Shown here one piece after another: positions 25,784-43,822 of a DNA stretch of 61,238 bases. A program made the position numbers and the translations under genes. This DNA comes from Cyanobacteriota bacterium. Lineage in GTDB: Bacteria; Cyanobacteriota; Vampirovibrionia; LMEP-6097. The notes beneath the pieces were generated by a model. It worked only from the letters and a program-made list of their open reading frames with translations, had not been told where the DNA came from and made no database searches. Each line of letters starts with the position of its first letter. Within the stretch, counting starts at the first letter, position 1. The DNA is taken from the NCBI GenBank assembly GCA_041170505.1, contig JBEAYS010000078.1, forward strand, positions 1 to 61,238. Reading direction: 5' to 3'.

Positions 25784-28700
25784 TGGCTATTGATTTAACA
25801 GGTATAAATAACGAAAATGAATTTTATGCACATCATTATTTGACTGCGATTCTTGAAGCTGATATTAAAGATTTTATTTCGCAGTGGAAATTTGACAACA
25901 CTGAAGTTAAGCCGCCGTATGCACAATTAAAATTCTTATCTAAGACATATTTTTCTTTTCTTAGTCAGTTTGAAAAAAAGAAATCTATAGAAGATCGTAT
26001 TGAACTACAAAACGAGTGGGACAGTCAACTTCTTAATGCTTTAGGATATGAGTACCAAGCTAAACAAAAAAATATTGATGGAGTTTTAGAACTTGGATTA
26101 GCTACTGAAATTACAAAAAACAACGGAGCACCAAATCTTTGGATTATTGAGGTGTTTAATAGTTATGAAGATGAGTCAGATCCACTCTCCTTATCGCTTG
26201 AAAATTTTCAGGCAAACATAAGTGATATTAAGTCTCAGGATGAGCTTAGTTTAGACTCTGTAATCACTAAGCATATATTTAGCTTGGATGAACCTCCTCG
26301 GTGGATAATAGTTCTCAATCATTCTCAAGTGATTCTTATTGATCGTAGCAAATGGAATGAGAAAAGATTTTTGCGCTTTGATATCAAGGAGATACTAGGG
26401 CGTAAAGAAGATAGTACGCTCAAAGCGACAATAGCCCTCTTGCATAGAGAAAGTATCTCGCCTCAAGAAGGTCTTGCTCTATTGGATTCGCTTGATGAAA
26501 ACTCACACAAGCATGCTTTTTCGGTGTCGGAAGATCTTAAGTATGCACTCAGAGAGGCAATTGAATTAATTGGCAATGAAGCTATTTACTATTTACAAGA
26601 AGTAAGGCGCAAAGGAACATACACTGGAAGCGAAAAACTAGACGAGAAAGAGCTTACGCGTGAATGTTTGCGCTATATGTACAGAATACTTTTCTTGCTA
26701 TATATAGAAGCTCGTCCTGAACTGGGCTATGTGCCAATCAGATCAGATGCTTACCGTTCTGGCTATAGCCTAGAGTCCTTGCGTGACTTGGAATTAATTA
26801 AGCTTACAAGTGAAGAATCAAAAAACGGACACTATATTCACGAGTCTATAAAATTACTTTTTGCTTTGATTTATGAAGGGGTCAAATCAGAAAAAGAACT
26901 ATTGAAATCATCTGGTGGTTATAAAACATTTGAAATACCCCCGCTAAAAACACACTTGTTTGATCCAGAAAGAACCCCAATCTTAAACAAAGTAAAGTTT
27001 AGAAATCACATATTACAAAGAGTTATAAAACTAATGTCTTTATCTAAGGCTGCCAAAGGCAAAAGCAAAAGACGAGGTCGTATTTCTTATGCACAGCTTG
27101 GTATTAATCAGCTTGGTGCTGTTTATGAAGCCTTACTCTCCTATCAAGGTTTCTTTGCTCAAACAGATTTGTACGAAGTTAAAAAAGCTGATGAGAAATA
27201 TGATGAACTAAAGAATGCGTACTTTATCAAGGCTGAAGATTTAGAGAAATACAATGAAGAAGAAAAAGTTTACAACAAAGACGGCAGTCTGAAAAAATAT
27301 GAGAAGGGAAGTTTCATATATCGCTTAGCTGGGCGAGATAGAGAGAAATCAGCTTCTTACTATACTCCTGAAGTTTTGACTAAGTGTTTGGTTAAATATT
27401 CTCTCAAAGAATTATTAAAAGACAAAACCGCAGATGATATCCTCAAGCTAAAAGTCTGTGAGCCTGCGATGGGTAGTGCAGCTTTCTTGAATGAAGCTAT
27501 AAATCAATTAGCAGAAGCTTACTTAGAAAGAAAACAAAAAGAACTAGATGAGAGAATCGCTCACGATGAGTATATTCATGAATTACAAAAAGTGAAAATG
27601 TATCTTGCTGATAATAATGTTTTTGGAGTAGATCTTAATCCAGTAGCAGTTGAACTTGCAGAGGTATCATTACTTCTCAACACTATCTCAAGAGAGAACT
27701 TTATCCCTTGGTTTGGTATGCAGTTGGTCTGTGGTAATTCTTTGATAGGTGCAAGAAGACAGGTTTTTGATACTAAACTACTTAAGCGTGAGAAAAAAGA
27801 CGGTCAACTCTGGCTAGATTCTGTTCCAGAAAGAGTCATGCCTAGTAATAAGCGAGAGGCAGATACTGTTTATCATTTTTTACTTCCTGATAATGGCATG
27901 GCTGACTACAAGGATAAAGTAATTAAAGAGCTCGCAGGTGAGGAAATAAAAAAAATAAACTCATGGAGAAAAGATTTTACTAAAGAATTTAAATCTGGTG
28001 AAATAAATAGCCTCAAATCCATATCAGCAAATATAGACAAACTATGGGACGAGCATACCAAGCTTCAAGCAGAGATGCGCGAACGAACTACAGATTATTT
28101 CCGCATATGGGGACAAAAAAATGGCAAAGAACATAAGAATCTGAGCGAAACACGTTGGAAAGATAAAGTTTTAGAACAAGAACTGCATTCAAAACAAATC
28201 CGTAATTCAAGTCCTTATCGAAGACTAAAGCTAGCCATGGATTATTGGTGCAGCTTGTGGTTTTGGCCAATAGATCAAGCTGATCTATTACCATCTAGAG
28301 CTGAGTATCTAATGGAGCTTGAGACTATTCTAGGAGGATCTCCCGTTGAAGTCTCTGCTGGACAAGATGAACAACTTGGTCTTTTTTCTGAGACCATGAG
28401 TGATGAGAATAAAGAGAAACTCAAAGGTTTAGGCTATGCTGATGTTAATAAGCTGTGTACAGAAGTACCAAGATTTAAGCTTGTAAAAGAACTTGCCGAG
28501 AAACATAGATTCTTGCATTGGGAGCTGGAGTTTGCAGATATTTTTAATAGTAATGGTGGCTTTGATTTATTACTTGGTAATCCGCCTTGGATTAGCATAA
28601 GTTGGAAAGAAAGCCACATTCTAAGCCAATATGATCCAGTAATTCAACTGAGAAATATGAAAAATATTAGTAACAGAGAGGAATTGTTATCGCTAATTGA

Positions 28701-30447
28701 GCGTAAAGTAAATTATCTCAATGAGTATGTTGAAAGTACATCATCTAGGAATTTTTTAACTAGCACCTCTTACTATCCTATTTTAAAGGGTACATTGAAT
28801 AATTTATATAAAAATTTTCTTGTTATGTGTACCTCTATTGTTAATTCTGCCGGGAAAGCAGGCTTAATAACTGATAAAAGTCTATATGAAGATCCGACAT
28901 GTAATTTGTTACGTAAAGAGATCTTTCCTAGACTTATTTACTATTTTAATTTTCAAAATCAGCTTAACTTATTTGCTGAAGAGGCTATTGGACACGCGGG
29001 CTTCTTTTGTATGAGTATCTTTTCATCTGAGAAAAAAGAGAAGGTTAATTTCGATGCAATCTTTAATCTTTTTAGTCCCAAGACCATAGATTCATCATAT
29101 GAGCATACATCATTAAGTAGCGTACCTACATTAAAAAGAATGAAAACCAAGGAGTGGAATTTAGATGGTCATAGTCAAAGACTAATAAAAATTGATAATG
29201 ATTATTTAAAATTAATGGCAGCAATTTTTGGTGAGAATCAAGATGCTGACTCCCCTTGTTTGATTTCTGTTTATAGTAATGAAATTTATAAGATTTTGGA
29301 GAAATTAGTGCTATATCCAAACCATTTCAGAGATTTTAGTTCTGAGTTTATGCATACCTCAATGTTTAATGAAACTAATGCCGAGAGAAAATTATATACC
29401 AAGAAGACGATTGATTTTGTAGAGGAGCTCCACCATTTTGTTTTTTCAGGACCTCATTTCTATGTTTCTACTCCATGGTATAAACAGCCAAGGAGATTTT
29501 GTAAAAGCAAAGGAGACTATGAAACAATAGATTTAACGAGATTACAAAAAGATCAGATACCTAGAACTTTTTATCAATTAAATGACTCTGGTATCTCTAA
29601 AATTGAAAGTTTTAAGAATCGTAAAGTTACTGACTACTATAGATTAGTTCGCAGGTCTATGGCTGGTGTTTCTAATGAAAGGACTTTAATAACAGCGATA
29701 ATACCACCTGGACCAGCGCACATCCATGGTGTCACATCTATAGTTGCAGACAATGAACTACTTTTACAAATGGCAGGAGTCTCCCACTCAATTGTGTCTG
29801 ATTTCTTGATAAGGTCTTTTGGTAAGACCAATATATCTTCTGATATAGTTGATACTCTTCCAATGTTTAAGAAAAGAAATAAGTGGCTGAACTTTAGAAC
29901 TTTACGATTAAATTGTTTGAGTTTATTTTATTCAAACTTGTGGCAGGATTGCTATGACTGTGACATTGTGTCTGATTCATTTACTAAGTTAGATAATAGA
30001 CTAAAAGACTGGTCTGGATTGACAGGTACTTATTCTGATAATGTGCCGCTTAGAACGTTTTTTGAAAGAAGGCAAGCCTTGATTGAAATTGACGTATTAG
30101 TATCATTGGATTTGGGGATTACATTAAATGAGTTAATTACATTATATAGAACACAGTTTAGTGTTTTATATGAAAATGAAAATGATACTTGGTACGACCA
30201 ACAAGGACAGATTGTATTCAGTTGCAACAAGGGGCTATCTGGGGTAGGCTTTACCCGCCCAGAATGGGAGAAAATAAAAGACATGAAAGAGGGTACTGTC
30301 TCTAGAACTATAGTTGATGACACTTTACCGGGAGGTCCTGTCAAAAGAACTATAGAATACCATGCTCCTTTTGATCGCTGTGACAGAGAGAGAGACTATG
30401 AGATAGCTTGGAAAGAATTTGAGAGGAGGTTTCAAGAAACTAAATGA
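25783..30447 (+). CDS. Large (1554 aa) N6-adenine DNA methyltransferase, Eco57I/PglX/DrmMI-like
   Basis: SAM-binding motif I VCEPAMGSAAFLNEA (~27457) and catalytic motif IV LLGNPPWISISW (NPPW at 28579-28590). The start overlaps the SNF2 stop by 1 nt (TAATG). Confidence 0.88.
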   Translation: MAIDLTGINNENEFYAHHYLTAILEADIKDFISQWKFDNTEVKPPYAQLKFLSKTYFSFLSQFEKKKSIEDRIELQNEWDSQLLNALGYEYQAKQKNIDGVLELGLATEITKNNGAPNLWIIEVFNSYEDESDPLSLSLENFQANISDIKSQDELSLDSVITKHIFSLDEPPRWIIVLNHSQVILIDRSKWNEKRFLRFDIKEILGRKEDSTLKATIALLHRESISPQEGLALLDSLDENSHKHAFSVSEDLKYALREAIELIGNEAIYYLQEVRRKGTYTGSEKLDEKELTRECLRYMYRILFLLYIEARPELGYVPIRSDAYRSGYSLESLRDLELIKLTSEESKNGHYIHESIKLLFALIYEGVKSEKELLKSSGGYKTFEIPPLKTHLFDPERTPILNKVKFRNHILQRVIKLMSLSKAAKGKSKRRGRISYAQLGINQLGAVYEALLSYQGFFAQTDLYEVKKADEKYDELKNAYFIKAEDLEKYNEEEKVYNKDGSLKKYEKGSFIYRLAGRDREKSASYYTPEVLTKCLVKYSLKELLKDKTADDILKLKVCEPAMGSAAFLNEAINQLAEAYLERKQKELDERIAHDEYIHELQKVKMYLADNNVFGVDLNPVAVELAEVSLLLNTISRENFIPWFGMQLVCGNSLIGARRQVFDTKLLKREKKDGQLWLDSVPERVMPSNKREADTVYHFLLPDNGMADYKDKVIKELAGEEIKKINSWRKDFTKEFKSGEINSLKSISANIDKLWDEHTKLQAEMRERTTDYFRIWGQKNGKEHKNLSETRWKDKVLEQELHSKQIRNSSPYRRLKLAMDYWCSLWFWPIDQADLLPSRAEYLMELETILGGSPVEVSAGQDEQLGLFSETMSDENKEKLKGLGYADVNKLCTEVPRFKLVKELAEKHRFLHWELEFADIFNSNGGFDLLLGNPPWISISWKESHILSQYDPVIQLRNMKNISNREELLSLIERKVNYLNEYVESTSSRNFLTSTSYYPILKGTLNNLYKNFLVMCTSIVNSAGKAGLITDKSLYEDPTCNLLRKEIFPRLIYYFNFQNQLNLFAEEAIGHAGFFCMSIFSSEKKEKVNFDAIFNLFSPKTIDSSYEHTSLSSVPTLKRMKTKEWNLDGHSQRLIKIDNDYLKLMAAIFGENQDADSPCLISVYSNEIYKILEKLVLYPNHFRDFSSEFMHTSMFNETNAERKLYTKKTIDFVEELHHFVFSGPHFYVSTPWYKQPRRFCKSKGDYETIDLTRLQKDQIPRTFYQLNDSGISKIESFKNRKVTDYYRLVRRSMAGVSNERTLITAIIPPGPAHIHGVTSIVADNELLLQMAGVSHSIVSDFLIRSFGKTNISSDIVDTLPMFKKRNKWLNFRTLRLNCLSLFYSNLWQDCYDCDIVSDSFTKLDNRLKDWSGLTGTYSDNVPLRTFFERRQALIEIDVLVSLDLGITLNELITLYRTQFSVLYENENDTWYDQQGQIVFSCNKGLSGVGFTRPEWEKIKDMKEGTVSRTIVDDTLPGGPVKRTIEYHAPFDRCDRERDYEIAWKEFERRFQETK

Positions 30448-33400
30448 TACCTTCGGTAATATCTAAGCAGCTCAAGCAAGGAGTGGATGATTTCCTGCGC
30501 ACTACTTTCCCTATTTCGACTAATGCTTTTTCTGGAGTTGTTGACGACATGCTCAATGAAGAGGGAAAGCTTTTCAAAGGTCCTTACGTCTCTATTAATT
30601 TGCCCTTTAAAAACCCAGAACCAGAAGGTGATTATAAAAATTTCTTTGCTGATATCCCTATGAAATATCAGCCTTATCAACACCAACTTAAGTCATTCAA
30701 GAGACTAACAGCTAATAAATCAACAATTATTGCAACAGGTACTGGTTCTGGTAAAACAGAATGTTTTTTGTATCCAGTGTTAGATTATTGTTACAAAAAA
30801 AGAAACGATAAAGGTATTAAGGCAATAATTATTTATCCAATGAATGCGCTTGCTACTGATCAAGCTAAGCGTATTGCTAAAGCTATCTACGGCAACAAAA
30901 AGCTACACGGTAATGTAACAGCTGGCTTATTCATAGGACAACAGGAAAATGACCCTAAAGATTCTATGACAAGAGAGCATGTGATTACCAATAAAGACAC
31001 ACTTAGAGAAAATCCTCCTGATATTTTGTTGACCAACTATAAAATGCTTGATTACTTGATGGTTAGAGTGAAAGACAGGGAGCTTTGGCAGCACAACAAT
31101 CCTGAAACTTTAAAATATCTAATCGTTGATGAGTTGCATACTTTTGATGGGGCACAAGGTACTGATCTCTCTTGTTTGATTAGACGTCTGAAAAATAGAC
31201 TAGAAGTCCCTGCTAATCATTTATGCTGTGTCGGTACTTCTGCAACTATAGGTAGTGAAGAAGAGATCAATAATCTACTTAGTTACATTAAAGATGTCTT
31301 TAGTGATAACTTTGATAAAGAATCTATTGTTACTGAAGATAGGGAAAGTTCTAAAGAGTTTTTAAGCGAAGATATTGTAGAATATAATGCAGTTCCAGAG
31401 CCATCTCAGGCATTCAAACTAAAGCCTGAACAATACGACAGCCCTGAGGAATTTTTACTAGCTCAATATAGATTATGGTTTGAAACAGACTTGGATATAA
31501 ACTCAGAAGAGGATAGGCTTAAGCTTGGTAAACAGCTCAAGAAACATAGGTTCTTTCAGAATTTATTGACTATTCTAGATGGACGTACTATTAGTTTACA
31601 CAACATTATTGATGAGTTTAAGCAGATAGCAGTATTCCAGAGTGATGAAGATAGAGAGTATTGTATCGATCTGATTAATAGTATGTGTGCCCTCGTCTCC
31701 CATGCTAGATCAAGTGTTGAAGGTGAGATACTTCCGTTTCTCAATGTGCGTTACCAACTTTGGATGCGTGAGTTAAGAAGAATCGTTGCAGAAACCAGCC
31801 ATTATCCAAAACTTGCATTTTCAGATGACTTAAAGGAAGACCAAGAAAATAAATTTCTTCCTATCGTGCATTGCCGCGAATGTGGCTCGACAGGATGGGG
31901 TGGAGTGAGAACGGAAGACAATACTATTAATGACAATTTGAGAGATTTTTACCATGTATTTTTTAAGAAACAACCTTGGCTTACTTTCTTGTTCCCAATA
32001 AACTCAGATGATAAAGATGATTCTAATAAAACTTCTCGATTATGCGGCAAATGTCTAACTGTAACTAATCAAACGAAAGAATGTCCTTCTTGTCATAATA
32101 AAGAACTTCTAGAAGTTTTTATTCCAGACAATACCACAAGAAATAAAGATGACAAAGTCATAACCAACAATAACTGTCCTTATTGCGGTAGCTATGGTGG
32201 GCTAACCATTATGGGTTCAAGAGCCGCAAGCTTAATTAGCGTGATGGTTGGTCAACTTTTTGCATCGCGTTATGGAGATATAAATCAAAAATTAGTTTCT
32301 TTTGCTGATTCTGTGCAAGATGTTTCTCTCTATGCTGGATTCCTTGGAGCTAGAACTTACTCGATTAATTTTAGATCAGCCTTACAGCAGCTTGTTGATG
32401 AACAGGGACAAGGTAAAACACTTTCTGAATTGCCAGAGTTGTTCGTTCAACATTGGGCTCAGAAGTTAGGTCTGGAAAAATATATCTCATACTTTATAGC
32501 CCATAATATGGAATGGTTTTCTGAATATGACTATATGAAAAAGAAAGGTCAATTACCGGCTGATTCTGATCTCAAAGAGTTAGTTGATAAAAGAATAAGT
32601 TGGGAAATCTTTAGTGAATATGGCTATAGATCCCGCATTGGAAGAACCTTAGAGAAGAGCAGTGTCTCAACGGTATTTCCTAAAACTGAATTGGTAGAGA
32701 CTGCAGCAAAAGAGCTTGCTGAAATAGTCCAGAACGAAATCGGTGCTTTTAGAGATACTACTATAGATCAGTATTTAAAATTTATCTACGGATTAATTAT
32801 GCACCTCAAAACTAAGGGAGGTGTTTCACATCCTGCTTTGGATGAATATATAAATGAAAATGGTAATTCATATCTTCTGAATCGTCAGAGTTTCATGCCT
32901 AGCTTTTGGGATCGTGCTCCAGTGTTCCTGACCAGTCGCAAAAGGGGCAAGAGTAGATTTGAAACTATATTGAGTAACCAAGGTAGACAAGCTACTTGGT
33001 ATGAGAAATGGTTGTTTAAATTATTTGGTACAGATCTAAATTTTGTTAAAAGTTATGCCGAGGATTTTTATAAAATTGCTCTATCCAAGCTAGAAGAAAA
33101 TGGACTCCTAGATAAATATGCTATTAACAATGAACAATTCACCTGGGGTCTTAAACCTGATAACTTAGAACTCACGTTAAAGGTTGCTCAGTTGCGTTGT
33201 GACAAATGTAGCCATTCAGTATCTACTGCTGATGAAGAATTAAAGAGTTGGGTATCTATGCCATGTATGAGACCAAGTTGTAATGGCAAATATCAAGAAG
33301 ATAAAGTCAGAGACGACTATTACGGCAAACTTTATTCAAGTGCAAATATATATAGAATCCATGCTGAAGAACATACCAGTCTCTTGGGTAGGGATGAACG

Positions 33401-36400
33401 TGAAACTGTTGAGAAGAGTTTTATTAATAATGAAAATCCATGGGATCCTAATTTACTCTCTGCCACACCTACATTAGAGATGGGGATAAATATAGGTGAT
33501 TTGTCATCAGTGTTCTTGTGCTCTGTACCTCCAGCTCAATCTAATTATATCCAAAGAATTGGTAGAGCTGGAAGAACAGATGGTAATGCTTTTACTTTTA
33601 CCATGGCGGAGGGAGTATCTCATGACTTGTACTTTTTTGCTGAGCCTGAGGAAATGATTAATGGACAAGTTAATCCACCAGGCGTTTACTTGAATGCTTC
33701 TGCAATATTGGAAAGACAGTTTGTAGCTTTTTGTTTTGATAAGTGGGTATCAACAGGAATCAATGAAAAAGCCATACCTGAGAAACTGGGACCAGTATTG
33801 AATAACGTTGAAGCTGCTAAGTCTGCAAGCTTTCCATATACTTTTTTGAGATTTACACAAAAACAAAAAGATACACTGTTGCAAGAATTCTTTGAATTGT
33901 TTCAGGATGTATTAGATGATGATTCTCGCAAGCATATACAAATATATGTTGAAGGTGATAAGCAGCATGAAGGTAGCTTTGAGCATAAGCTCATCAATTC
34001 ACTAGAGTTTGTCTCTAAGGAAAGAGATACTTATAAGAAAAAGGCTGCTAAATTAAGACTTGCAATTAACAAGAAAGAAGATGACCCTGCTCAAAGAGAC
34101 AAGAATTTTGAGGATGACTTAGATGAATTAATAAACCAAAGAAAAGGACTAGAGAAATTAATTAGAGGAATAAACGATAAGGATATTCTCAATTTCTTTA
34201 CTGATGAAGGTTTCTTGCCAAATTATGCTTTCCCTGAAGCTGGTGTAATACTCAAATCTCTAATTTTTAGACGCAAACAAAAAAATCGTGCTTCGGACGA
34301 AGAGCCAAATTCTAATTATGATACTTGGACCTATGAATATGAAAGACCGGCTATGAGTGCGATACAAGAACTTGCACCAGCTAACACTTTCTATGCAAAT
34401 GGACGTAAGGTTGAAATAGATCAAGTAGATCTTAGTTTGACAGAACCTCAGATGTGGAGATTCTGTGATGAGTGTTCTTATAGTGAAGCGGCTGAAACTA
34501 ATACCGCCAGTAGTAGCTGCCCTAAATGCGGTAGCGTAATGTGGGGTGATATTGGTCAGCAGAGAAAAATGCTGAAACTTAGACAAGTATATGCAAGCTC
34601 CTCTGATAAGAAAAGTCGTATAGGTGATGATGCAGAGGAAAGAACGCCAGTCTTCTACAACAAGCAGATGTTGGTTGATTTTACTGAAGACAATATACAA
34701 GATGCTTTTAGAGTTACTGACGAATCGTTCCCTTTTGGTTTTGAGTTTATTAAAAAAGCTATTTTTAGAGAGATAAACTTTGGTGAAAGAACTCTCGATG
34801 GTGACTCATTTAAAGTAGCAGGAGTTGAATCTACCAGAAACGGATTCAAACTGTGTAAGCATTGTGGGAAAATACAAAAGGAAAAACCTCTGGGTGATAT
34901 TAAATCTGATGATATTAAACGATTACATGATATAAATTGTCCACTAAGAGGGAAAGAAATTAATTCTGCTGACTTTATCGACTGTGTTTATTTATACAGA
35001 GAGTTTCATTCTGAAGCAATTAGGATGCTTTTACCAATATTGCAAGAATTAGAGTCACCACAAAAGCTTCATTCGTTTATTGCAGCTCTACAACTGGGTC
35101 TCAAAAGTAAATTTGGTGGTGCTGTTGATCATTTGCAAATAACTACTTACAACGAACCTGATGAGGATTCTGATCAACGCAAACAGTTTCTGATGCTTTA
35201 TGACAGGATTCCTGGCGGGACTGGCTATTTGAAACAATTGATGCGAAATGAGAAACCACTTTTTGAGGTTTTTGAATTAGCATTAGATAAATTGAAAAGA
35301 TGTACTTGTGCTAATGATCCAGATAAAGACGGATGCTATCGCTGTATTTATGCATATCGTAATAGCTATGATATGCCTCTAACTTCTAGAGAAACTGCTA
35401 TCAAGCTTCTAACTGAAGCTCTAGATCATAAGGATAAGCTAAGTAAAATTGAGTCTCTTCGCAAAGTTAGCCTAAATGCTTTATCTGGTAGTGTCTTAGA
35501 GAGTAATTTTATTGACGCGTTCAGGAAATATAAAAAGGAGGGCACGCCAATCCAAGTATCTCAAGAAATTGTCAATAAAAAGCCAGGCTATTTTATAAAA
35601 ATAGGAGAGCGTGGTTATTACGTGGAGCCGCAAGTGAGCCTCAATGACTCTTCTCGCGTTTCAGTACCATCTAAAGCTGATTTTGTTTTTTACCCAGCAG
35701 AGTCACGATCGCCACAAAAACCAATAGTAGTTTTCACTGATGGCTTTAAATATCATAAAGATAGACTTGGCTACGATACTGCACAGAGAATGGCTTTGGT
35801 TCAAAGTGGAAAGTTTTGGACTTGGTCTATAACTTGGAAAGATGTGCAGTCCATTCTGGATAATTTTGATAAAAAATATTTTATTGACTTGTTCAACTGT
35901 GGTGTGACGCAAAATGAAGCTAAGCTTGGTAAGTTTTTGGCAAGCTTTGGAATAGATCAGTTTAAATCACTGGCAAAAAATACTAGTAATTTTGACCTAT
36001 TAGTTAGTTTCCTTGCTGAACCAGATGAAGATTCTTGGGCTAAGCATGCTTTTGTTAGATCATTAATGTGGCTTGACTTGAAGGCAACTGATCATAAAGC
36101 TTTTGATAAGGAGGTTTTGAAGCATTTACCTTCTGAGATGAAGGGTATTTATGATGAGTTGTCGGAAGACAAATTTATTGGTCAGTATGATCATCAAAAA
36201 AATAACAGTAACGTCATTCAGGTTTTTGTTTCGGTTCCAAAAAATGACTTGAAGGAAAACAAATACAACAATGCTTTTGCTATGTGTGCACTGCTTGATG
36301 GAAAGCAAGGAAATGACTTTGAAAGTGATTGGGTTAGCTTTTTGAGAGTGTATAATTTTATGCAATTTTTGCCAATGTCTTTTTGTTTCACCTCTAGCGG

Positions 36401-36785
36401 TATAGAAGCTCTTGAATATGAGAAATTACACTTGGATAGAATTTTAAGAAGAAACGATAGTAAAGCAGAGATAGCGACCGAGGAGTGGGCAGAAGTGCTA
36501 GAGCTATCTGATGAAAGTTTCTCTGGTTTAATCAGCAAATTGCGAATCCAGTTGAACATGGTGCCAGAAGTTGGATTCGAGCTGCAAAATACAGATGATG
36601 AGATTATTGCAGAAGCCGAGCTGGCTTGGAAAGACGGTCGAATCGCTATTTTGGCTAGTTTTCAGGCTGATTATAAAATTATTTTCAGCAATTATGGGTG
36701 GAAAGTTTATATGATTGAAGAGGCTCTGGACAATATGTCTGAACTTATCTCTTCAATAGAGAAAAAGGAAATGAATAGATTATGA
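30444..36785 (+). CDS. Giant (2113 aa) DExH helicase, Zn-ribbon insertion, DUF1998/MZB-like region and C-terminal restriction-endonuclease-like region (DrmA+DrmB fusion-like / DruE-like)
   Basis: Walker A ATGTGSGKT (30738), DELH (31128-31139), GTSAT, QRIGRAGR (33552-33575). CxxC pairs: CRECGS, CGKC..CPSCHN, CPYCGS, CDEC..CPKCGS, CKHCGK, CTCAN..DGCYRC. C-terminal ADFVFYP..VVFTDGFKYHKD and EAELAWKDGRIAIL. ATGA overlaps with both neighbours. Confidence 0.85.
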   Translation: MIPSVISKQLKQGVDDFLRTTFPISTNAFSGVVDDMLNEEGKLFKGPYVSINLPFKNPEPEGDYKNFFADIPMKYQPYQHQLKSFKRLTANKSTIIATGTGSGKTECFLYPVLDYCYKKRNDKGIKAIIIYPMNALATDQAKRIAKAIYGNKKLHGNVTAGLFIGQQENDPKDSMTREHVITNKDTLRENPPDILLTNYKMLDYLMVRVKDRELWQHNNPETLKYLIVDELHTFDGAQGTDLSCLIRRLKNRLEVPANHLCCVGTSATIGSEEEINNLLSYIKDVFSDNFDKESIVTEDRESSKEFLSEDIVEYNAVPEPSQAFKLKPEQYDSPEEFLLAQYRLWFETDLDINSEEDRLKLGKQLKKHRFFQNLLTILDGRTISLHNIIDEFKQIAVFQSDEDREYCIDLINSMCALVSHARSSVEGEILPFLNVRYQLWMRELRRIVAETSHYPKLAFSDDLKEDQENKFLPIVHCRECGSTGWGGVRTEDNTINDNLRDFYHVFFKKQPWLTFLFPINSDDKDDSNKTSRLCGKCLTVTNQTKECPSCHNKELLEVFIPDNTTRNKDDKVITNNNCPYCGSYGGLTIMGSRAASLISVMVGQLFASRYGDINQKLVSFADSVQDVSLYAGFLGARTYSINFRSALQQLVDEQGQGKTLSELPELFVQHWAQKLGLEKYISYFIAHNMEWFSEYDYMKKKGQLPADSDLKELVDKRISWEIFSEYGYRSRIGRTLEKSSVSTVFPKTELVETAAKELAEIVQNEIGAFRDTTIDQYLKFIYGLIMHLKTKGGVSHPALDEYINENGNSYLLNRQSFMPSFWDRAPVFLTSRKRGKSRFETILSNQGRQATWYEKWLFKLFGTDLNFVKSYAEDFYKIALSKLEENGLLDKYAINNEQFTWGLKPDNLELTLKVAQLRCDKCSHSVSTADEELKSWVSMPCMRPSCNGKYQEDKVRDDYYGKLYSSANIYRIHAEEHTSLLGRDERETVEKSFINNENPWDPNLLSATPTLEMGINIGDLSSVFLCSVPPAQSNYIQRIGRAGRTDGNAFTFTMAEGVSHDLYFFAEPEEMINGQVNPPGVYLNASAILERQFVAFCFDKWVSTGINEKAIPEKLGPVLNNVEAAKSASFPYTFLRFTQKQKDTLLQEFFELFQDVLDDDSRKHIQIYVEGDKQHEGSFEHKLINSLEFVSKERDTYKKKAAKLRLAINKKEDDPAQRDKNFEDDLDELINQRKGLEKLIRGINDKDILNFFTDEGFLPNYAFPEAGVILKSLIFRRKQKNRASDEEPNSNYDTWTYEYERPAMSAIQELAPANTFYANGRKVEIDQVDLSLTEPQMWRFCDECSYSEAAETNTASSSCPKCGSVMWGDIGQQRKMLKLRQVYASSSDKKSRIGDDAEERTPVFYNKQMLVDFTEDNIQDAFRVTDESFPFGFEFIKKAIFREINFGERTLDGDSFKVAGVESTRNGFKLCKHCGKIQKEKPLGDIKSDDIKRLHDINCPLRGKEINSADFIDCVYLYREFHSEAIRMLLPILQELESPQKLHSFIAALQLGLKSKFGGAVDHLQITTYNEPDEDSDQRKQFLMLYDRIPGGTGYLKQLMRNEKPLFEVFELALDKLKRCTCANDPDKDGCYRCIYAYRNSYDMPLTSRETAIKLLTEALDHKDKLSKIESLRKVSLNALSGSVLESNFIDAFRKYKKEGTPIQVSQEIVNKKPGYFIKIGERGYYVEPQVSLNDSSRVSVPSKADFVFYPAESRSPQKPIVVFTDGFKYHKDRLGYDTAQRMALVQSGKFWTWSITWKDVQSILDNFDKKYFIDLFNCGVTQNEAKLGKFLASFGIDQFKSLAKNTSNFDLLVSFLAEPDEDSWAKHAFVRSLMWLDLKATDHKAFDKEVLKHLPSEMKGIYDELSEDKFIGQYDHQKNNSNVIQVFVSVPKNDLKENKYNNAFAMCALLDGKQGNDFESDWVSFLRVYNFMQFLPMSFCFTSSGIEALEYEKLHLDRILRRNDSKAEIATEEWAEVLELSDESFSGLISKLRIQLNMVPEVGFELQNTDDEIIAEAELAWKDGRIAILASFQADYKIIFSNYGWKVYMIEEALDNMSELISSIEKKEMNRL

Positions 36786-38896
36786 GTATACCTGCAGTAA
36801 AAGTTGCTATCTCAGCTGATTTTTTATCAGCTTTTTCAAAGATACCTAAACCACAACAATCAAAGGTCATGAAATTTGTTGAGGAATTTAAAGAGAATCC
36901 TCAATCATCAGCGATCAATTATGAAAAAATACACAACGTTAAAGATAGTAAATTTCGTTCTGTTCGTATTGATCAGGCCTATAGGGGGATAATTGTAAAG
37001 CCCGATGAAGGTAATGTTTATGTTTTACTTTGGGTTGATCACCATGATGAAGCTTATGCGTGGGCTGAAAAAAGAACTTGCAAAATTAACCCAGAGACAG
37101 GAAGTTTGCAGATATATTCAGTTGACGAGCAAGATCTAGTCATTAAAAAAGATAAGCAAGAAAAGGTTGAAGGCTTATTTGATGAAATTCGAACCAAGCA
37201 ATTACTGAGACTTGGAGTTCCAGAGGAATTAGTTGATTTAGTTAGAAGTATTAGTACTGATGTTGAATTAGAAAAATTAGAAAGTAAATTGCCTCAAGAA
37301 GCTTTTGAAGCCTTGTATATGCTTGCAGCAGGATTTAGTTTACAGGACGTATTTAACGAGCTTGATAAAAAGGATGAAGATGTTGTTGTTGATCTTAATG
37401 ACTATGTCAAAGCTATCGATCAAGTGGATTCTAAGAGAAGGTTCTATGTTATTGAAAACGAATTGGAGATGGAAGCTATTTTGAATGCTCCACTAGAAAA
37501 GTGGAGGGTATTTTTACATCCGTCTCAAAGACGGCTGGTTGATAAAGATTGGAATGGTCCAGTGCGAGTACTTGGAGGTGCAGGTACTGGCAAGACAGTG
37601 GTTGCAATGCATAGAGCCAAATGGCTTGCTAGTAAAGGAGAAAGGATTCTTTTCACTACGTTTACAAAAAATCTTGCAAAAGACATCGAAAGTAATCTTG
37701 GTAAGATTTGCTCTCCAGAATTAATGAAGAAAATAGAAGTCGTAAATATTGATCAGTGGGTATCTGATTTCCTCAAGAAAAATGGTTACGATTATAAAAT
37801 TGTCTATGATAAAGAGACAGAGAAATATTGGCAGGGCGTGCTTACTTTAGCTAATACTCAAAACAATTTATCGGAAGAATTCTATAGAGAAGAGTGGGAA
37901 AAAGTTATTCAAGCTCAGGGGATTAGAAGTTTGAATGAGTATCTAAAGGCTTCTAGGGTTGGAAGAGGTATACAGCTTAACAGAAAACTGCGCAAAGAAG
38001 TTTGGTCTGTTTTTGAAGAATATATTAGACGTTTAAAAGAGAATCATCTCAAGGAACGTGAGGATGCAATTCGAGACTGTCGTCATATTTTGGAACAAAA
38101 TCCAAATGCTATCTCATATTTTTCGGTTATCGTTGATGAAGCTCAAGACATGGGAATGGAGGCTTTTAAACTTATTAGAACAATCATTCCTGAAGAAAGA
38201 GTAAACGATATTTTTATTGTTGGTGATGCTCATCAGAAAATATATTCAAATAAAGTTGTTCTTAGCCAATGTGGGATTAACATACGAGGTAGAAGTAGGA
38301 AACTTAGAATAAACTATCGCACAACTGAAGAGATTAGAAAATGGTCAGTCGCTATTTTGGAGGGTGTTAAAGTAGATGATCTTGATGGGTCTGAAGACGA
38401 TCAAAAAGGTTACCGCTCCTTGCTCCACGGTTCTGAGCCAATTGTAAAAGAGTTTAAAAGTTTTGAAGAAGAGGTTGCTTTTATAAGTGCTTTTCTGAAT
38501 TCGGCAGAAGTGAATACTGATGAAAAATTAAAGTCAACTTGCTTGGTTGTTCGGACCAATAATTTGGTAGATAAATACAAAGAAGCCTTAGAGAAAGAAG
38601 GTGTTTCTTCATATAAAATTAGCAGAAGTTCTGCAGAAGATAGGAAACGTCCTGGTGTGAGGATTGCAACAATGCATCGTGTGAAAGGACTTGAATTTGA
38701 TAACGTTATAATTGCTGGACTTGATGATGGCAGTGCACTGTTGCTTAAGAAGGCAAATAAATCTGAGGATTCTGTCATAAAAAGAGAATATGAGCAGATA
38801 GAGCGCAGCCTAATTCATGTATCTGCCACTAGAGCAAAAAGACAACTGTTTATAACCTCGCCAAGAAAATTATCGCCACTTTTAAGTAAAAACTGA
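36782..38896 (+). CDS. SF1 UvrD/Rep-like helicase with N-terminal RelE/ParE-like small domain
   Basis: Walker A VLGGAGTGKTVVAMHRA (~37574), Walker B VIVDEAQD, C-terminal IATMHRVKGLEFDNVII. The N-terminal ~100 aa (QAYRGIIVKPDEGNVYVLLWVDHHDEAYAWA) resembles toxin-fold domains. Confidence 0.85.
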   Translation: MSIPAVKVAISADFLSAFSKIPKPQQSKVMKFVEEFKENPQSSAINYEKIHNVKDSKFRSVRIDQAYRGIIVKPDEGNVYVLLWVDHHDEAYAWAEKRTCKINPETGSLQIYSVDEQDLVIKKDKQEKVEGLFDEIRTKQLLRLGVPEELVDLVRSISTDVELEKLESKLPQEAFEALYMLAAGFSLQDVFNELDKKDEDVVVDLNDYVKAIDQVDSKRRFYVIENELEMEAILNAPLEKWRVFLHPSQRRLVDKDWNGPVRVLGGAGTGKTVVAMHRAKWLASKGERILFTTFTKNLAKDIESNLGKICSPELMKKIEVVNIDQWVSDFLKKNGYDYKIVYDKETEKYWQGVLTLANTQNNLSEEFYREEWEKVIQAQGIRSLNEYLKASRVGRGIQLNRKLRKEVWSVFEEYIRRLKENHLKEREDAIRDCRHILEQNPNAISYFSVIVDEAQDMGMEAFKLIRTIIPEERVNDIFIVGDAHQKIYSNKVVLSQCGINIRGRSRKLRINYRTTEEIRKWSVAILEGVKVDDLDGSEDDQKGYRSLLHGSEPIVKEFKSFEEEVAFISAFLNSAEVNTDEKLKSTCLVVRTNNLVDKYKEALEKEGVSSYKISRSSAEDRKRPGVRIATMHRVKGLEFDNVIIAGLDDGSALLLKKANKSEDSVIKREYEQIERSLIHVSATRAKRQLFITSPRKLSPLLSKN

Positions 38897-39187: not shown

Positions 39188-39487
39188 TTATAACCTTTCG
39201 GTATAAAAATCTACTTTGATATTTTCAATGAATAATCTTTTATGCTTGTCATTTAAAGCATTAAATAAATCATCCTCGTGAGCCGTTCCAGTGTATTTGA
39301 TTTTTACATCCAAGTCAGAATTCTTTCTAGGCTGTCCAAAAATTCTACTACCAAAAAGCTGGATACCTTGGATATCAAAATCTAAGCCTTCAAAATGCAA
39401 CTCATTATTTAACTGTTTAATATGTGAATGAATTATGCTAAGTATTTCCATTTCAGTATAATCTGGCAATCCTAAAACGGTAAGCAT
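39188..39487 (-). CDS. Minimal Pol-beta-fold nucleotidyltransferase (MNT-like)
   Basis: 99-aa ORF with the GS-x10-DLDV pattern (LFGSRIFGQPRKNSDLDVKI), characteristic of minimal nucleotidyltransferases. Confidence 0.6.
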   Translation of the reverse strand: MLTVLGLPDYTEMEILSIIHSHIKQLNNELHFEGLDFDIQGIQLFGSRIFGQPRKNSDLDVKIKYTGTAHEDDLFNALNDKHKRLFIENIKVDFYTERL

Positions 39488-39524
39488 AGAAACTATTTTA
39501 GTCTATTGTAGGCATCTAAAACCC

Positions 39525-40127
39525 CTACCCAACATCTTCCAAATCCTTCAGCTTCTTACCATTGTACTGCCAGTATGCCGCTCCTTGGTAGGCACCGCTG
39601 GCGTTTAGCTTACCTTTCATCTCCTGTATCTTGTAAGTCAAGGGCGAAAGCTTCCAGATCTGCTCACCGTACTCTACTTCCCGCTCCCCGACTACCTTTG
39701 CTGTAATTGTCGCATCACTAATAAAAACAATTTCCGCACCGTCCTTTATCCCTTTTTTGTAAAAGCTAAATCGCACACCTTGCTCTCTGGCTTGCGTAAC
39801 CTCATCAAATTCTTGGTCTTTATTCATATCTTGTGGATAAATCACCTTACACTCAAAACACAATAAAAGCTGTCGCACCAAATCATAATCAAGAGCAAAC
39901 AGTTCACTATTGCCTACTCGATGCTTGTCAAAAATCTCTATCAAAAGCTTTTCTTTGGCTGTATAATCTTTTAGCTCGACTGCAAAAAATCTTTTTAGAC
40001 CTGAGACATTGTAATAACCATTCGCCTCAAGGAACCGCATTCTTTCTTGAAAATTATCGGTGCCGCTTTGACCGATTTTGATCAAGCCCGAAACAGCGGT
40101 AGTCATGATGTAAATAATTCCCTGCAT
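39525..40127 (-). CDS. GIY-YIG superfamily (T5orf172/MUG113-like) domain protein with a small C-terminal domain
   Basis: N-terminal GIIYIMTT...LIKIGQS...RMRFL...EKLLIEIFDKHRVGNSELF follows the T5orf172 pattern. The C-terminal ~90 aa are unassigned. Confidence 0.6.
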   Translation of the reverse strand: MQGIIYIMTTAVSGLIKIGQSGTDNFQERMRFLEANGYYNVSGLKRFFAVELKDYTAKEKLLIEIFDKHRVGNSELFALDYDLVRQLLLCFECKVIYPQDMNKDQEFDEVTQAREQGVRFSFYKKGIKDGAEIVFISDATITAKVVGEREVEYGEQIWKLSPLTYKIQEMKGKLNASGAYQGAAYWQYNGKKLKDLEDVG

Positions 40128-40135
40128 AATAATTA

Positions 40136-40187
40136 TTAAGGATACACTGAAAAATTCGACTTCGTCGATTTTGCAACGAATCCTTAA
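40136..40187 (+). mobile_element. Family-1 MITE, internally deleted 52-bp relic
   Basis: ttaaggatacactgaaaaattcgacttcgtcgattttgcaa-cgaatccttaa keeps both ends but lacks the central hairpin. A further isolated end, cagtggatccttaa, lies at 40360-40373 in inverted orientation. Confidence 0.7.
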
Positions 40188-40192
40188 AGCAC

Positions 40193-40225
40193 GGGCTGGC
40201 TAATTGTAATAATGTAACAATTAGA
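40193..40225. repeat. Family-3 palindrome (CTAATTGTAAYAATGTAACAATTAG), copy 1
   Basis: gggctggctaattgtaataatgtaacaattaga. It recurs at 40271-40301, 53323-53347 and 54977-55006. Confidence 0.7.
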
Positions 40226-40270
40226 GTGAGCCTTTATGAGGGTTTCTGGCGGTTTTACTAGGGTTTTGAG

Positions 40271-40301
40271 CCGGGCTAATTGTAATAATGTAACAATTAG
40301 A
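40271..40301. repeat. Family-3 palindrome, copy 2 (direct repeat of copy 1)
   Basis: ccgggctaattgtaataatgtaacaattaga. Confidence 0.7.
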
Positions 40302-40369
40302 AAGTGCTGGTTTAGCTGAGGGCGCACGATGTTTTACTTAAACACTATATTTACTCAGCCAGTGGATCC

Positions 40370-41332: not shown

Positions 41333-41366
41333 TCGGGAAGCGCTTTTTGCTGGGGTTTTGTGTGGG
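41316..41366 (-). promoter_or_regulatory. Conserved DUF1016-cassette 5' leader, copy 1 of 4
   Basis: ctaccgccgaaacgcactcgggaagcgctttttgctggggttttgtgtggg. Homologous blocks lie at 42488-42529, 43916-43967 and 45031-45093, each just upstream (on the minus strand) of a cassette start. Confidence 0.55.
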
Positions 41367-41381
41367 TTGATTGGTTAGACC

Positions 41382-42477: not shown

Positions 42478-42540
42478 AGCGTAATTCTACCGCCGAAACG
42501 CACTAGGGAAGGGATTTTTGCGCTTAACATCTTGTCACGA

Positions 42541-43695: not shown

Positions 43696-43822
43696 GTTTT
43701 AACCTTTAATAAGCATCTTCTTTATTAAGAGTTTAGCTTCTAACCTTTAATAAGTCAAATTCTTATTAAAAGTTATTTTATCGCTTATTTGTTGGATATC
43801 CAGAAAACTACCGAGAGTACAA

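What the first reader, a model, noticed from the sequence alone, without database searches (positions are those of the whole stretch)
30444..36785. 2113-aa protein: helicase core split by a ~690-aa Zn-ribbon-rich insertion, with a possible in-cis nuclease tail
Seen: helicase motifs I-III lie at aa ~99-268 (nt 30738-31250), while the RecA2 lobe starts near aa ~965 and ends with QRIGRAGR at aa 1037-1044 (nt 33552-33575). The intervening ~690 aa contain CxxC pairs (CRECGS, CGKC...CPSCHN, CPYCGS). Residues ~1250-1640 hold further CxxC pairs (CDEC..CPKCGS, CKHCGK, CTCAN..DGCYRC), consistent with DUF1998/MZB. The last ~400 aa contain ADFVFYP...VVFTDGFKYHKD (nt ~35673-35765) and EAELAWKDGRIAIL. Both patterns are reminiscent of restriction-endonuclease-like (PD-(D/E)xK, Vsr/DUF559-type) cores. 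Inference: an in-cis nuclease-like module could substitute for the missing PLD nuclease DrmC. The nuclease call rests only on short motif resemblance.
Basis: partly seen in the sequence, partly recalled or inferred. Interest (0 to 1): 0.7.

Follow-up and report, generated by a model that had tools for sequence, protein, structure and literature searches.

The report
ArmC helicase-nuclease of ARMADA II
The 2113-residue protein is ArmC, the large helicase with a built-in nuclease-like tail of a four-gene anti-phage system called ARMADA type II that was described in 2025, so this is a divergent new copy of a known system and not a new kind of thing.

Summary
It is the third gene of a translationally coupled operon, 22934-38896. 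The operon encodes an SNF2 helicase, a PglX-like methyltransferase, this YprA/MrfA-family helicase and a UvrD/GajB-like helicase. That is the defining gene order of ARMADA type II (Bell et al. 2025, PMC12458937).

All four proteins are colinear orthologues of the E. coli reference locus, at 51, 43, 37 and 48% identity. ArmC is 2113 aa and ArmD 704 aa in both.

The roughly 690-aa split of the helicase core is confirmed. It consists of a helical domain, a Cys-rich beta module, helical/wHTH-like parts and a Zn ribbon. Twenty-three Cys and one His are invariant.

The tail folds confidently (pLDDT 88.7) into three domains:
- **D1** carries a Vsr-type motif. D1746, D1766, G1767 and H1771 are conserved in 76-77 of 77 species-level loci and align in register with Vsr D51/H64/H69. 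My profile and fold matches are only weak to moderate.
- **D3** is a degenerate nuclease-like domain also found at the C-terminus of ZorE.

Nuclease activity has not been tested by anyone. Verdict: new member of a known kind; interest is low to moderate.

The parts
22934..25783 (+). armA: SNF2/RapA/BrxHII-like helicase, 949 aa
   Evidence: Pfam SNF2-rel_dom and Helicase_C. PADLOC DrmD 9.3e-106. NCBIfam DISARM_DrmD 2.7e-111, below its cutoff. 51% identity over the full length to E. coli ArmA, WP_001041505.1.
25783..30447 (+). armB: PglX/DrmMI-like N6-adenine DNA methyltransferase, 1554 aa. Its stop overlaps the armC start by 4 nt.
   Evidence: Pfam Eco57I and N6_Mtase. PADLOC type IIG REase-MTase 3.4e-284 and DrmMI 3.8e-58. 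43% identity to E. coli ArmB; the NPPW and AMGSAAF motifs are present in the alignment.
30444..36785 (+). armC: YprA/MrfA-family helicase with C-terminal nuclease-like tail, 2113 aa (the finding)
   Evidence: 37% identity, colinear, to the 2113-aa E. coli ArmC. PADLOC best hits are DruE1 (4.7e-114) and DruE3 (7.3e-104).
30669..31256 (+). RecA1 lobe, aa 76-271, motifs I-III (K104, D229-E230-x-H232, S266-A267-T268)
   Evidence: Pfam DEAD 1.8e-24. Motif residues are invariant. K104 and D229 align with E. coli K110 and D234, whose mutation abolishes defence.
31257..31703 (+). Insert part 1, aa ~272-420: all-helical domain (BrxA-like according to Bell et al.)
   Evidence: The AF2 model of aa 265-991 has pLDDT 83.4; residues 8-156 are helical. 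The BrxA-like label is from the literature only; Foldseek gave no significant match.
31704..32213 (+). Insert part 2, aa ~421-590: beta-rich Zn-binding module with invariant C477, C480, C534, C537, C547, C550, C578 and C581
   Evidence: Beta strands at model residues 158-325. Invariant cysteines.
32214..33323 (+). Insert part 3, aa ~591-960: helical region with wHTH/MarR-like elements, possibly including the first RecA2 elements, followed by a Zn-ribbon beta module (C919, C922, C941, C946)
   Evidence: Model secondary structure. Only weak Foldseek matches to Fur/MarR/RosR wHTH regulators, E 0.8-4. Invariant cysteines. The MarR-like label is from Bell et al..
33324..33743 (+). RecA2 lobe C-terminal part, aa ~961-1100, motifs V-VI including QRIGRAGR (aa 1037-1044)
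   Evidence: Pfam Helicase_C, aa 971-1045, 6.3e-10. Q1037, R1038, G1040, R1041, G1043 and R1044 are invariant.
33744..34193 (+). aa ~1101-1250: helical/coiled-coil finger between RecA2 and the canopy module
   Evidence: Read from the sequence (charged heptad-like stretch, aa ~1185-1245) and from the description of ArmC in Bell et al.. Not modelled here.
34194..35363 (+). aa ~1251-1640: OB-CON-DUF1998 'canopy' with three Zn clusters (C1341/1344/1359/1362; C1471/1474/H1495/C1499; C1620/1622/1631/1634)
   Evidence: Pfam MZB, aa 1547-1635, 1e-11. Invariant Cys and His. The architecture is described.
35472..35858 (+). Tail domain D1, aa ~1677-1805: Vsr-type PD-(D/E)xK-superfamily endonuclease-like domain. 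Candidate catalytic residues are D1746, D1766 and H1771, with T1765, D1778 and R1782.
   Evidence: AF2 tail model pLDDT 88.7. hhalign against 11 Vsr sequences gives P = 3.1e-4, in register with the Vsr catalytic motif. Pfam MTES_1575 matches 4 of 20 homologues, best E = 5.4e-4. BFVD Foldseek finds DUF559 (prob 0.97) and Vsr (prob 0.47), but E >= 0.07. The residues are conserved in 76-77 of 77 loci.
35916..36458 (+). Tail domain D2, aa ~1825-2005: poorly conserved alpha/beta domain of unknown role ('inactive EEP?' in Bell et al.)
36462..36782 (+). Tail domain D3, aa ~2007-2113: degenerate Vsr-like, 'nuclease-like' domain (E2046, E2059, W2062, W2086), also present at the C-terminus of ZorE
   Evidence: PADLOC ZorE2 6.5e-16. 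NCBIfam ZorE 2.7e-08. BLASTP against E. coli ZorE 1e-12. hhalign against Vsr matches only the GWKV strand, P = 0.03.
36782..38896 (+). armD: UvrD/GajB-like SF1 helicase with an N-terminal ~100-aa RelE-like domain, 704 aa. Its start overlaps the armC stop by 4 nt.
   Evidence: Pfam UvrD-helicase and UvrD_C. PADLOC GajB 7.8e-33. 48% identity over the full length to the 704-aa E. coli ArmD. Directly downstream of armC in 61 of 63 loci. The RelE label is from the literature only; Pfam found nothing in aa 1-240.

Best explanation
The window carries an ARMADA type II anti-phage operon, armA-armB-armC-armD (22934-38896), and the finding is ArmC.

ArmC is a YprA/MrfA-family SF2 DNA helicase. Its RecA2 lobe is interrupted by DNA-binding and Zn-binding inserts. 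Its OB-CON-DUF1998 'canopy' is fused in cis, whereas in DISARM it is the separate protein DrmB. Its C-terminus carries a Vsr-type metal-dependent endonuclease domain (D1) followed by two accessory domains (D2, D3).

Most likely mechanism:
1. ArmB, the PglX-like methyltransferase, marks or reads host DNA. ArmA is an SNF2 translocase.
2. ArmC loads on phage DNA that exposes single-stranded or junction structures and translocates using ATP.
3. ArmC's D1 nuclease cuts the invading DNA. The outcome is direct, non-abortive clearance.
4. ArmD (RelE-like domain plus UvrD) assists or backs this up.

Shown, in the E. coli orthologue by others: all four genes are required; the ATPase motifs of ArmA, ArmC and ArmD are required; the NPPW motif of ArmB is required; defence is non-abortive.

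Shown here: orthology, architecture, conservation of the required motifs and of the D1 catalytic-type residues, and a nearly universal gene order.

Inferred: that D1 cleaves DNA, what the substrate is, the polarity of translocation (by analogy with DruE), and the role of methylation.
For: **Context and orthology.**
- The four genes lie on one strand with 1-4-nt overlaps.
- Full-length colinear similarity to the E. coli SMS-3-5 locus: ArmA 51%, ArmB 43%, ArmC 37% (2113 vs 2113 aa), ArmD 48% (704 vs 704 aa). The ArmA of that locus is the accession used as reference by Bell et al..
- In 80 species-level loci, ArmD lies directly downstream in 61 of 63 and ArmB upstream in 45 of 50.

**Function in the E. 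coli orthologue.**
- ARMADA II protects against many phages.
- Infected cells stay viable; confirmed independently in EHEC.
- Window K104 and D229 align with those residues.

**Nuclease tail.**
- The AF2 model has pLDDT 88.7 and three domains. In D1, a strand carries D1746, the next strand ends in T1765-D1766, and a helix starts near H1771.
- hhalign against a Vsr family alignment gives P = 3.1e-4, aligning D1746=D51, T1765=T63, D1766=H64 and H1771=H69. Several bona fide Vsr proteins also have D at the H64 position (FxDGxFWH).
- Pfam MTES_1575, a restriction-endonuclease-fold family, matches 4 of 20 homologues.
- BFVD Foldseek matches include DUF559 (prob 0.97), DUF2726, a Vsr and restriction endonucleases.
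- D1746 is conserved in 76 of 77 loci, and D1766, G1767, H1771, D1778 and R1782 in 77 of 77, at 26-52% D1 identity.

**Analogy.** The closest solved structure is DruE (9TU7, E = 4.2e-47). DruE is a 3'-to-5' DNA helicase and a helicase-coupled nuclease acting on ssDNA-dsDNA junctions.
Against: - No nuclease activity of any ArmC has been measured. The published mutagenesis did not touch the Vsr residues.
- My structure searches gave no match at E <= 0.001 in PDB or BFVD. The profile match to Vsr covers only 26 columns, with probability 39%.
- The window's own D1 has no Pfam hit, and a D1 profile finds no Vsr in PDB sequences.
- D1 lacks the Zn-binding Cys/His of E. coli Vsr.
- Whether ArmB methylation provides self-protection is unknown.
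- The labels for the inserts (BrxA-like, MarR-like) rest on weak published scores. My Foldseek search did not reproduce them significantly.
Confidence: 0.85

Rival explanations
1. The tail is not catalytic. D1-D3 are DNA-binding or protein-docking modules derived from nucleases. In this reading the killing activity lies elsewhere, for example in the RelE-like domain of ArmD, in a partner system, or in helicase-driven stripping or blocking of replication without cleavage.
For: - Related DruE proteins of Druantia I and II carry Vsr domains predicted to be inactivated.
- In one study of Druantia III-A, the DruE PLD domains appear to have had no detected role in the assays used; the authors speculate they matter outside those experiments.
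- My fold and profile matches are weak.
- D3 lacks the DG...H motif.
Against: D1746 is conserved in 76 of 77 loci, and D1766, G1767, H1771, D1778 and R1782 in 77 of 77, while most surrounding positions vary. This is the pattern expected of an active site. Bell et al. predict the domain to be active.
Confidence: 0.1
2. It is a Druantia DruE, that is, part of a Druantia system variant, not ARMADA.
For: The best PADLOC models are DruE1 (4.7e-114) and DruE3 (7.3e-104). The closest solved structure is DruE. PADLOC-DB v2.0.0 (2023) predates ARMADA and has no ArmC model.
Against: - No large DruH-sized ORF and no second large helicase were seen in the window, and no Druantia partner turned up among the flanking ORFs scanned.
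- The tail has no PLD domain.
- The neighbours are ArmA, ArmB and ArmD orthologues.
- In E. coli, DruE and ArmC are separate genes in the same island, and the window protein matches ArmC in length and over its full length.
Confidence: 0.03
3. It is a DISARM class 1 variant in which DrmA and DrmB are fused and DrmC has been lost.
For: The DrmD-like and DrmMI-like neighbours give strong PADLOC hits (9.3e-106 and 3.8e-58). ArmC gives a weak DrmA hit (4.8e-18).
Against: - The DrmA match is far weaker than the DruE match.
- NCBIfam DISARM_DrmD is below its cutoff (373.6 against 610 bits).
- No EVE-like N-terminal domain, separate DrmB or PLD DrmC was detected. ArmC's RecA1 lobe starts at about aa 76, which leaves little room for such an N-terminal domain.
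- A fourth gene, armD, is conserved in 61 of 63 loci.
- Bell et al. separate ARMADA from DISARM phylogenetically.
Confidence: 0.02

Closest known systems
ARMADA type II ArmC of E. coli (WP_000937966.1 / WP_000937974.1; Bell et al. 2025, bioRxiv 10.1101/2025.09.15.676423)
   Same: Same length (2113 aa) and colinear over the full length. Same four-gene operon with overlapping stop and start codons. Same Walker A and B residues shown to be essential. Same order of inserts, canopy and three-domain tail.
   Different: Only 37% identical. The window comes from an uncultivated bacterium in a JGI metagenome, in a chromosomal defence island without Zorya II or Druantia III next to it. The E. coli ArmB is 86 aa longer.
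DruE of Druantia type III (E. coli EDL933; PDB 9TU7-9TUC; also 9WAE)
   Same: YprA-family helicase of about 2100 aa with DUF1998 and a C-terminal nuclease. It is the closest solved structure by sequence (E = 4.2e-47). It is a helicase-coupled nuclease that clears phage without detectable host toxicity.
   Different: DruE has two PLD domains instead of Vsr-type domains and works with DruH, with no methyltransferase, SNF2 or UvrD partners. Sequence similarity is confined to the helicase lobes.
DISARM class 1 (DrmD, DrmMI, DrmA, DrmB, DrmC)
   Same: It shares an SNF2 helicase, an N6-adenine methyltransferase and a YprA-like helicase with the DUF1998 module.
   Different: In DISARM the DUF1998 module is a separate protein (DrmB), the nuclease is a separate PLD protein (DrmC), and there is no ArmD.
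Vsr very-short-patch-repair endonuclease (PF03852; PDB 1VSR, 1CW0) and the DUF559 / MTES_1575 relatives
   Same: The motifs are colinear: an N-terminal S/T-x-x-E helix, a (P/A)DF strand, an F-T-(H/D)-G...H element and a W-containing strand. D51, T63, H64 and H69 align with D1746, T1765, D1766 and H1771.
   Different: The Vsr Zn site is absent. A 7-residue insertion follows the DF strand. There is no Pfam Vsr hit at any threshold for the window sequence. D1 is a domain of a giant helicase, not a stand-alone repair enzyme.
MrfA/YprA DNA-repair helicase of Bacillus subtilis (PDB 6ZNP/6ZNS)
   Same: Founding member of the helicase family: DEXH core plus the OB-CON-MZB canopy (E = 1.3e-16).
   Different: 751 aa, with no RecA2 inserts and no nuclease tail. 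It works with the separate exonuclease MrfB in repair, not in defence.

Membership tests
ARMADA type II | Gene order: BrxHII/RapA-like SNF2 helicase, PglX-like methyltransferase, YprA-like helicase, GajB-like helicase, all co-directional | tested here: met
   ORFs 22934-25783, 25783-30447, 30444-36785 and 36782-38896, all on the + strand. Family hits.
ARMADA type II | Orthology of each of the four proteins to the experimentally validated E. coli system | tested here: met
   BLASTP over the full length: 51%, 43%, 37% and 48% identity. No phylogenetic tree was built.
ARMADA type II | ArmC has inserts between RecA1 and the end of RecA2 (BrxA-like domain, beta-barrel Zn module, MarR-like domain) | tested here: inconclusive
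   The AF2 model (pLDDT 83.4) shows a helical domain, a beta-rich Cys module, a helical region and a Zn ribbon in that order. Foldseek gives only weak wHTH matches (E about 1) and no BrxA match.
ARMADA type II | ArmC has the OB-CON-DUF1998 module fused in cis | tested here: met
   Pfam MZB, aa 1547-1635, 1e-11. The four Cys of the cluster are invariant.
ARMADA type II | A C-terminal Vsr-type nuclease domain predicted to be active, often followed by further inactivated domains | tested here: met
   The catalytic motif aligns in register. The residues are conserved in 76-77 of 77 loci. The tail has three domains. The strength of the fold evidence is only moderate.
ARMADA type II | ArmD carries an N-terminal RelE-like domain | tested here: inconclusive
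   The N-terminal 116 aa align with E. coli ArmD. Pfam finds nothing in aa 1-240. The RelE label is from the literature (3BPQ, 0.0085).
ARMADA type II | Confers phage resistance that requires all four genes | not testable with these tools
   Shown only for the E. coli systems.
Druantia (types I-III) | DruE accompanied by DruA-D, DruM/F/G or DruH | tested here: not met
   Apart from ArmB, no second ORF over 1000 aa and no large DruH-sized ORF is present in the window. The flanking ORFs that I scanned gave other families. Not every ORF of the window was scanned.
Druantia type III | Two C-terminal PLD domains in DruE | tested here: not met
   No PLD family hit in the whole protein or in the tail.
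DISARM class 1 | Separate DrmB (DUF1998) gene and a PLD nuclease DrmC | tested here: not met
   DUF1998 is fused in ArmC. No PLD gene was found among the ORFs of the operon or the flanks that I scanned.
Vsr endonuclease family (Pfam PF03852) | Catalytic Asp (D51), Thr63-His64 and His69 in the order strand-strand-helix | tested here: met
   hhalign register. Secondary structure. D replaces H64, as it does in several genuine Vsr proteins.
Vsr endonuclease family (Pfam PF03852) | Sequence match above the family threshold, and the Vsr Zn site (Cys/His after H69) | tested here: not met
   No PF03852 hit for any of 20 D1 sequences at E <= 10. The CFWHxH...C residues are absent from D1. D1 is Vsr-like, not a Vsr.

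The most novel reading that the evidence does not exclude
The extreme C-terminal domain of ArmC (D3) is the same module as the 'C-terminal nuclease-like extension' of ZorE, which is reported to mark the ZorE proteins that co-occur with Druantia III. If D3 is a portable docking or DNA-lesion-sensing module shared between effectors of different systems, it could be the physical basis of the synergy seen in Zorya II - Druantia III - ARMADA II islands. Its presence in ArmC proteins with no Zorya nearby would make ARMADA the likely donor. Separately, the armB-armC junction appears to be a recurrent landing site for other defence cassettes.
Probability: 0.12. Interest if true: 0.5.

Novelty: new member of a known kind. 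Interest (0 to 1): 0.25.

Why it matters
ARMADA was named only in 2025 and its mechanism is still open. Nobody has shown what its effector does.

This divergent orthologue, together with 77 species-level relatives, shows which tail residues are under absolute constraint: D1746, D1766, G1767, H1771, D1778 and R1782. It also shows which published candidates are not constrained. That gives a precise mutagenesis target for testing whether ArmC is the nuclease of the system.

As a genome-scan finding it is ordinary: a correctly read instance of a described defence system.

Tried and rejected
- **Foldseek, tail model against PDB.** No match at E <= 0.001. The top hits (OprM/TolC) are spurious. Restriction-endonuclease-fold proteins appear only weakly (TnsA E = 0.35, R2 RLE 0.87, PaqCI 1.6).
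- **Foldseek, insert model against PDB.** Only weak wHTH hits. The DruE structures are apparently not in that library copy (entries up to April 2026).
- **D1 profile against PDB sequences.** Nothing relevant.
- **phmmer, tail against PDB.** Nothing.
- **Pfam on the window's D1, D2, D3 and the ArmD N-terminus.** Nothing usable.
- **The search for homologous proteins with E. coli Vsr.** It returned only near-identical enterobacterial Vsr proteins, useless for a diverse profile. I built one from 10 plasmid-borne Vsr genes instead.
- **hhalign D1 against D3 and D2 against Vsr.** No relationship detected.
- **First genome-contig scan with the single protein.** It found nothing. The alignment-based scan worked.
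- **Both structure-prediction jobs were used on multi-domain pieces.** D1 therefore could not be searched as an isolated domain, which probably cost sensitivity.
- **Rejected readings.** Druantia, DISARM and a housekeeping MrfA-like repair helicase (see rivals).
- **Antisense ORFs inside armC** (30432-30686, 34260-34700, 36218-36559). I took these as chance ORFs inside a strongly conserved coding region and did not test them further.

Full report
**1. Observation.**

The window has one uninterrupted ORF at 30444-36785 on the + strand, 2113 aa.
- Walker A TGTGSGKT at aa 98-105.
- DELH at aa 229-232 and SAT at aa 266-268.
- QRIGRAGR at aa 1037-1044 (nt 33552-33575).
- The CxxC pairs.
- ADFVFYP...VVFTDGFKYH at aa 1745-1771.
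- EAELAW at aa 2057-2062.

Pfam places DEAD at aa 79-271, Helicase_C at aa 971-1045 and the MrfA Zn-binding domain (DUF1998) at aa 1547-1635. The two halves of the helicase core are therefore about 700 residues apart.

The protein is not an oddity of this contig. 7815 database proteins match at E <= 1e-20, and the best 120 are almost all about 2100 aa and cover the whole query. In a 40-sequence alignment, 23 cysteines and one histidine are invariant.

**2. What it is.**

The gene is the third of four co-directional genes with 1-4-nt overlaps:

| Gene | Coordinates | Product |
|---|---|---|
| armA | 22934-25783 | SNF2 helicase, DrmD/BrxHII-like |
| armB | 25783-30447 | N6-adenine methyltransferase, PglX/DrmMI/type IIG-like |
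| armC | 30444-36785 | the finding |
| armD | 36782-38896 | UvrD/GajB-like helicase |

PADLOC (2023) calls the big protein DruE, at 4.7e-114. However, the gene set is exactly the one Bell et al. (2025) defined as ARMADA type II, ArmA-ArmB-ArmC-ArmD.

I fetched an E. coli locus whose ArmA is the accession used as reference in that paper (NC_010498.1). All four window proteins align with it end to end: 51, 43, 37 and 48% identity. ArmC is 2113 aa in both and ArmD 704 aa in both. The residues whose mutation abolished defence in E. coli ArmC, K110 and D234, correspond to window K104 and D229. The NPPW motif of ArmB and the Walker motifs of ArmA and ArmD are also present.

A scan of one genome per species found at least 594 relatives. 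I examined 80 loci:
- ArmD follows ArmC directly in 61 of 63 loci with enough flank.
- ArmB lies upstream on the same strand in 45 of 50.

The window itself is a JGI metagenome contig. The operon sits in a chromosomal defence island near nadA and rpmF, with no Zorya or Druantia next to it.

**3. Anatomy of the insertion.**

An AlphaFold2 model of aa 265-991 (pLDDT 83.4) shows four parts in order:
- an all-helical domain, aa ~272-420;
- a beta-rich module, aa ~422-590, carrying eight invariant Cys;
- a long helical region, aa ~590-885;
- a small beta Zn-ribbon, aa ~889-952, with C919/C922/C941/C946.

The Helicase_C part then resumes. This order fits the published description: a BrxA-like domain, a beta-barrel Zn module and a MarR-like domain with a further Zn module, the last two inserted in RecA2.

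My Foldseek search reproduced only weak matches to winged-helix regulators (Fur, MarR, RosR; E 0.8-4) and none to BrxA. Those labels therefore stay literature-based.

**4. Anatomy of the tail.**

A model of aa 1661-2113 is confident (pLDDT 88.7, pTM 0.75) and has three domains.

*D1, aa ~1677-1805.* Its elements run helix, three strands, a strand carrying A-D1746-F, a strand ending F-T1765-D1766-G, a helix beginning near H1771, a strand (WTWSITW) and a helix. This is the order of elements in Vsr.

A profile of 20 D1 sequences compared with an alignment of E. coli Vsr plus 10 diverse plasmid-borne Vsr proteins gives a local match with P = 3.1e-4 and probability 39%. It aligns D1746 with D51, T1765 with T63, D1766 with H64 and H1771 with H69. 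Several genuine Vsr proteins themselves read FxDGxFWH at this point.

Other evidence on the D1 fold:
- Pfam finds the restriction-endonuclease-fold family MTES_1575 in 4 of 20 D1 sequences (best E = 5.4e-4), but nothing in the window's own copy.
- Foldseek finds nothing at E <= 0.001.
- In PDB the restriction-fold proteins TnsA and the R2 endonuclease appear at E 0.35-0.9.
- Among viral models, a DUF559 protein (prob 0.97), DUF2726, a Vsr (prob 0.47) and restriction endonucleases appear at E 0.07-0.9.

I conclude that D1 is a Vsr-like member of the PD-(D/E)xK superfamily with an intact active-site signature. It is not a Vsr proper: it has no Vsr Zn site and no family-level sequence hit.

*D3, aa ~2007-2113.* It keeps E2046, E2059, W2062 and W2086 but lacks the DG...H element. 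It matches Vsr only over the GWKV strand, P = 0.03.

**5. Mechanism.**

Established by others in E. coli:
- The system protects against many phages.
- It needs all four genes.
- It needs the ATPase motifs of ArmA, ArmC and ArmD.
- It needs the NPPW motif of ArmB.
- It leaves infected cells viable.

The closest solved relative, DruE (9TU7), is a 3'-to-5' DNA helicase and helicase-coupled nuclease that acts on ssDNA-dsDNA junctions and forks.

My best reading is that ArmC is the translocating effector that cuts phage DNA with D1. ArmB would provide methylation-based discrimination or target recognition, and ArmA and ArmD would act as auxiliary motors. DNA cleavage by ArmC, its substrate and the role of methylation are inferences. 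The published mutagenesis did not include the Vsr residues.

**6. Comparison and novelty.**

The protein passes the tests for ARMADA type II that can be run in silico:
- gene order;
- four-fold orthology;
- the fused DUF1998 module;
- the Vsr-type tail.

It fails the defining features of the alternatives:
- Druantia: no partner genes and no PLD domains.
- DISARM: no separate DrmB and no DrmC.

It needs three corrections. The system has a name and a fourth gene. The K of FKYH is not conserved. The second motif lies in a degenerate domain.

This is a new, divergent member of a known kind. Interest is low to moderate, because the effector chemistry of ARMADA remains untested and the conserved-residue set found here defines the experiment.

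**7. Side observations.**

- *D3 and ZorE.* D3 is homologous to the C-terminal region of ZorE: PADLOC 6.5e-16, BLASTP 1e-12 for the window and 4e-9 for E. coli ArmC. A 2026 preprint describes that ZorE region as a 'nuclease-like extension' enriched in ZorE proteins that co-occur with Druantia III. I found no statement linking it to ArmC.
- *The armB-armC junction.* In 28 of 45 related loci the armB-armC junction contains more than 500 nt of extra DNA. In the two cases I inspected it encodes other defence modules: a Gabija-like OLD-TOPRIM ATPase plus a UvrD helicase, and an SMC-like ATPase plus AbiEi/AbiEii.

Noticed in passing
window 36462-36782 (ArmC aa ~2007-2113); L003 9288-10388 (-) (E. 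coli ZorE): The last domain of ArmC is homologous to the C-terminal 'nuclease-like extension' of the Zorya II effector ZorE. Scores: PADLOC ZorE2 6.5e-16; BLASTP 1e-12 for the window protein and 4e-9 for E. coli ArmC. The acidic residues and the Trp are shared (E2046/D, E2059/E, W2062/W). I found no paper stating the ArmC-ZorE link.
   Followed up: partly
L021 6816-10001; L026 4841-10001; 28 of 45 loci: Many ARMADA II loci carry extra genes between armB and armC. L021 has an OLD-TOPRIM ATPase plus a UvrD helicase (Gabija-like). L026 has an SMC-like ATPase plus AbiEi/AbiEii. The junction looks like a hotspot for nested defence cargo. The window has no insert there, only a 4-nt overlap. Gap sizes are estimated from tblastn HSP ends.
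   Followed up: partly
L045 (MAG labelled Methanococcoides sp.), L053 (MAG labelled Woesearchaeota): ARMADA II-like loci occur in MAGs labelled archaeal. L045 has armB, armC with all three tail domains, and armD at 50-60% identity. [quoted passage not shown] These are short contigs, so mis-binning is possible.
   Followed up: no
window 19277-19774 (+): A 165-aa ORF matches only the C-terminal half (profile positions 180-315 of 317) of a type IV methyl-directed Mrr-like restriction enzyme. It is probably an N-terminally truncated remnant.
   Followed up: no
window 19895-22590 (-): A two-gene pair lies immediately upstream of armA, divergently oriented: a DEDDh (RNase_T-type) exonuclease of 230 aa overlapping a 668-aa DUF2779 protein. 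Among the PADLOC models at E <= 1e-5, only the exonuclease has hits (CRISPR-associated DEDDh; candidate PDC-S48). It may be an uncharacterised defence pair.
   Followed up: no
window 39188-45015 (-): A further defence-island stretch downstream of armD. It holds a Polbeta nucleotidyltransferase (99 aa), a T5orf172/PDC-S57 protein, several decayed fragments of YhcG/DUF1016 PD-(D/E)xK nuclease genes (40370-42477), SoFic (7.2e-113) and one intact YhcG (PDC-S02).
   Followed up: partly
window 35688-35702 (ArmC aa 1749-1753) and the D1 alignment: Relative to Vsr, D1 has a 7-residue insertion between the DF strand and the FTDG strand (YPAESRSPQKP against DEYR). T1765 varies freely (T/L/C/M/V/A) in 77 loci. 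This fits a backbone-carbonyl metal ligand, as in Vsr T63.
   Followed up: partly
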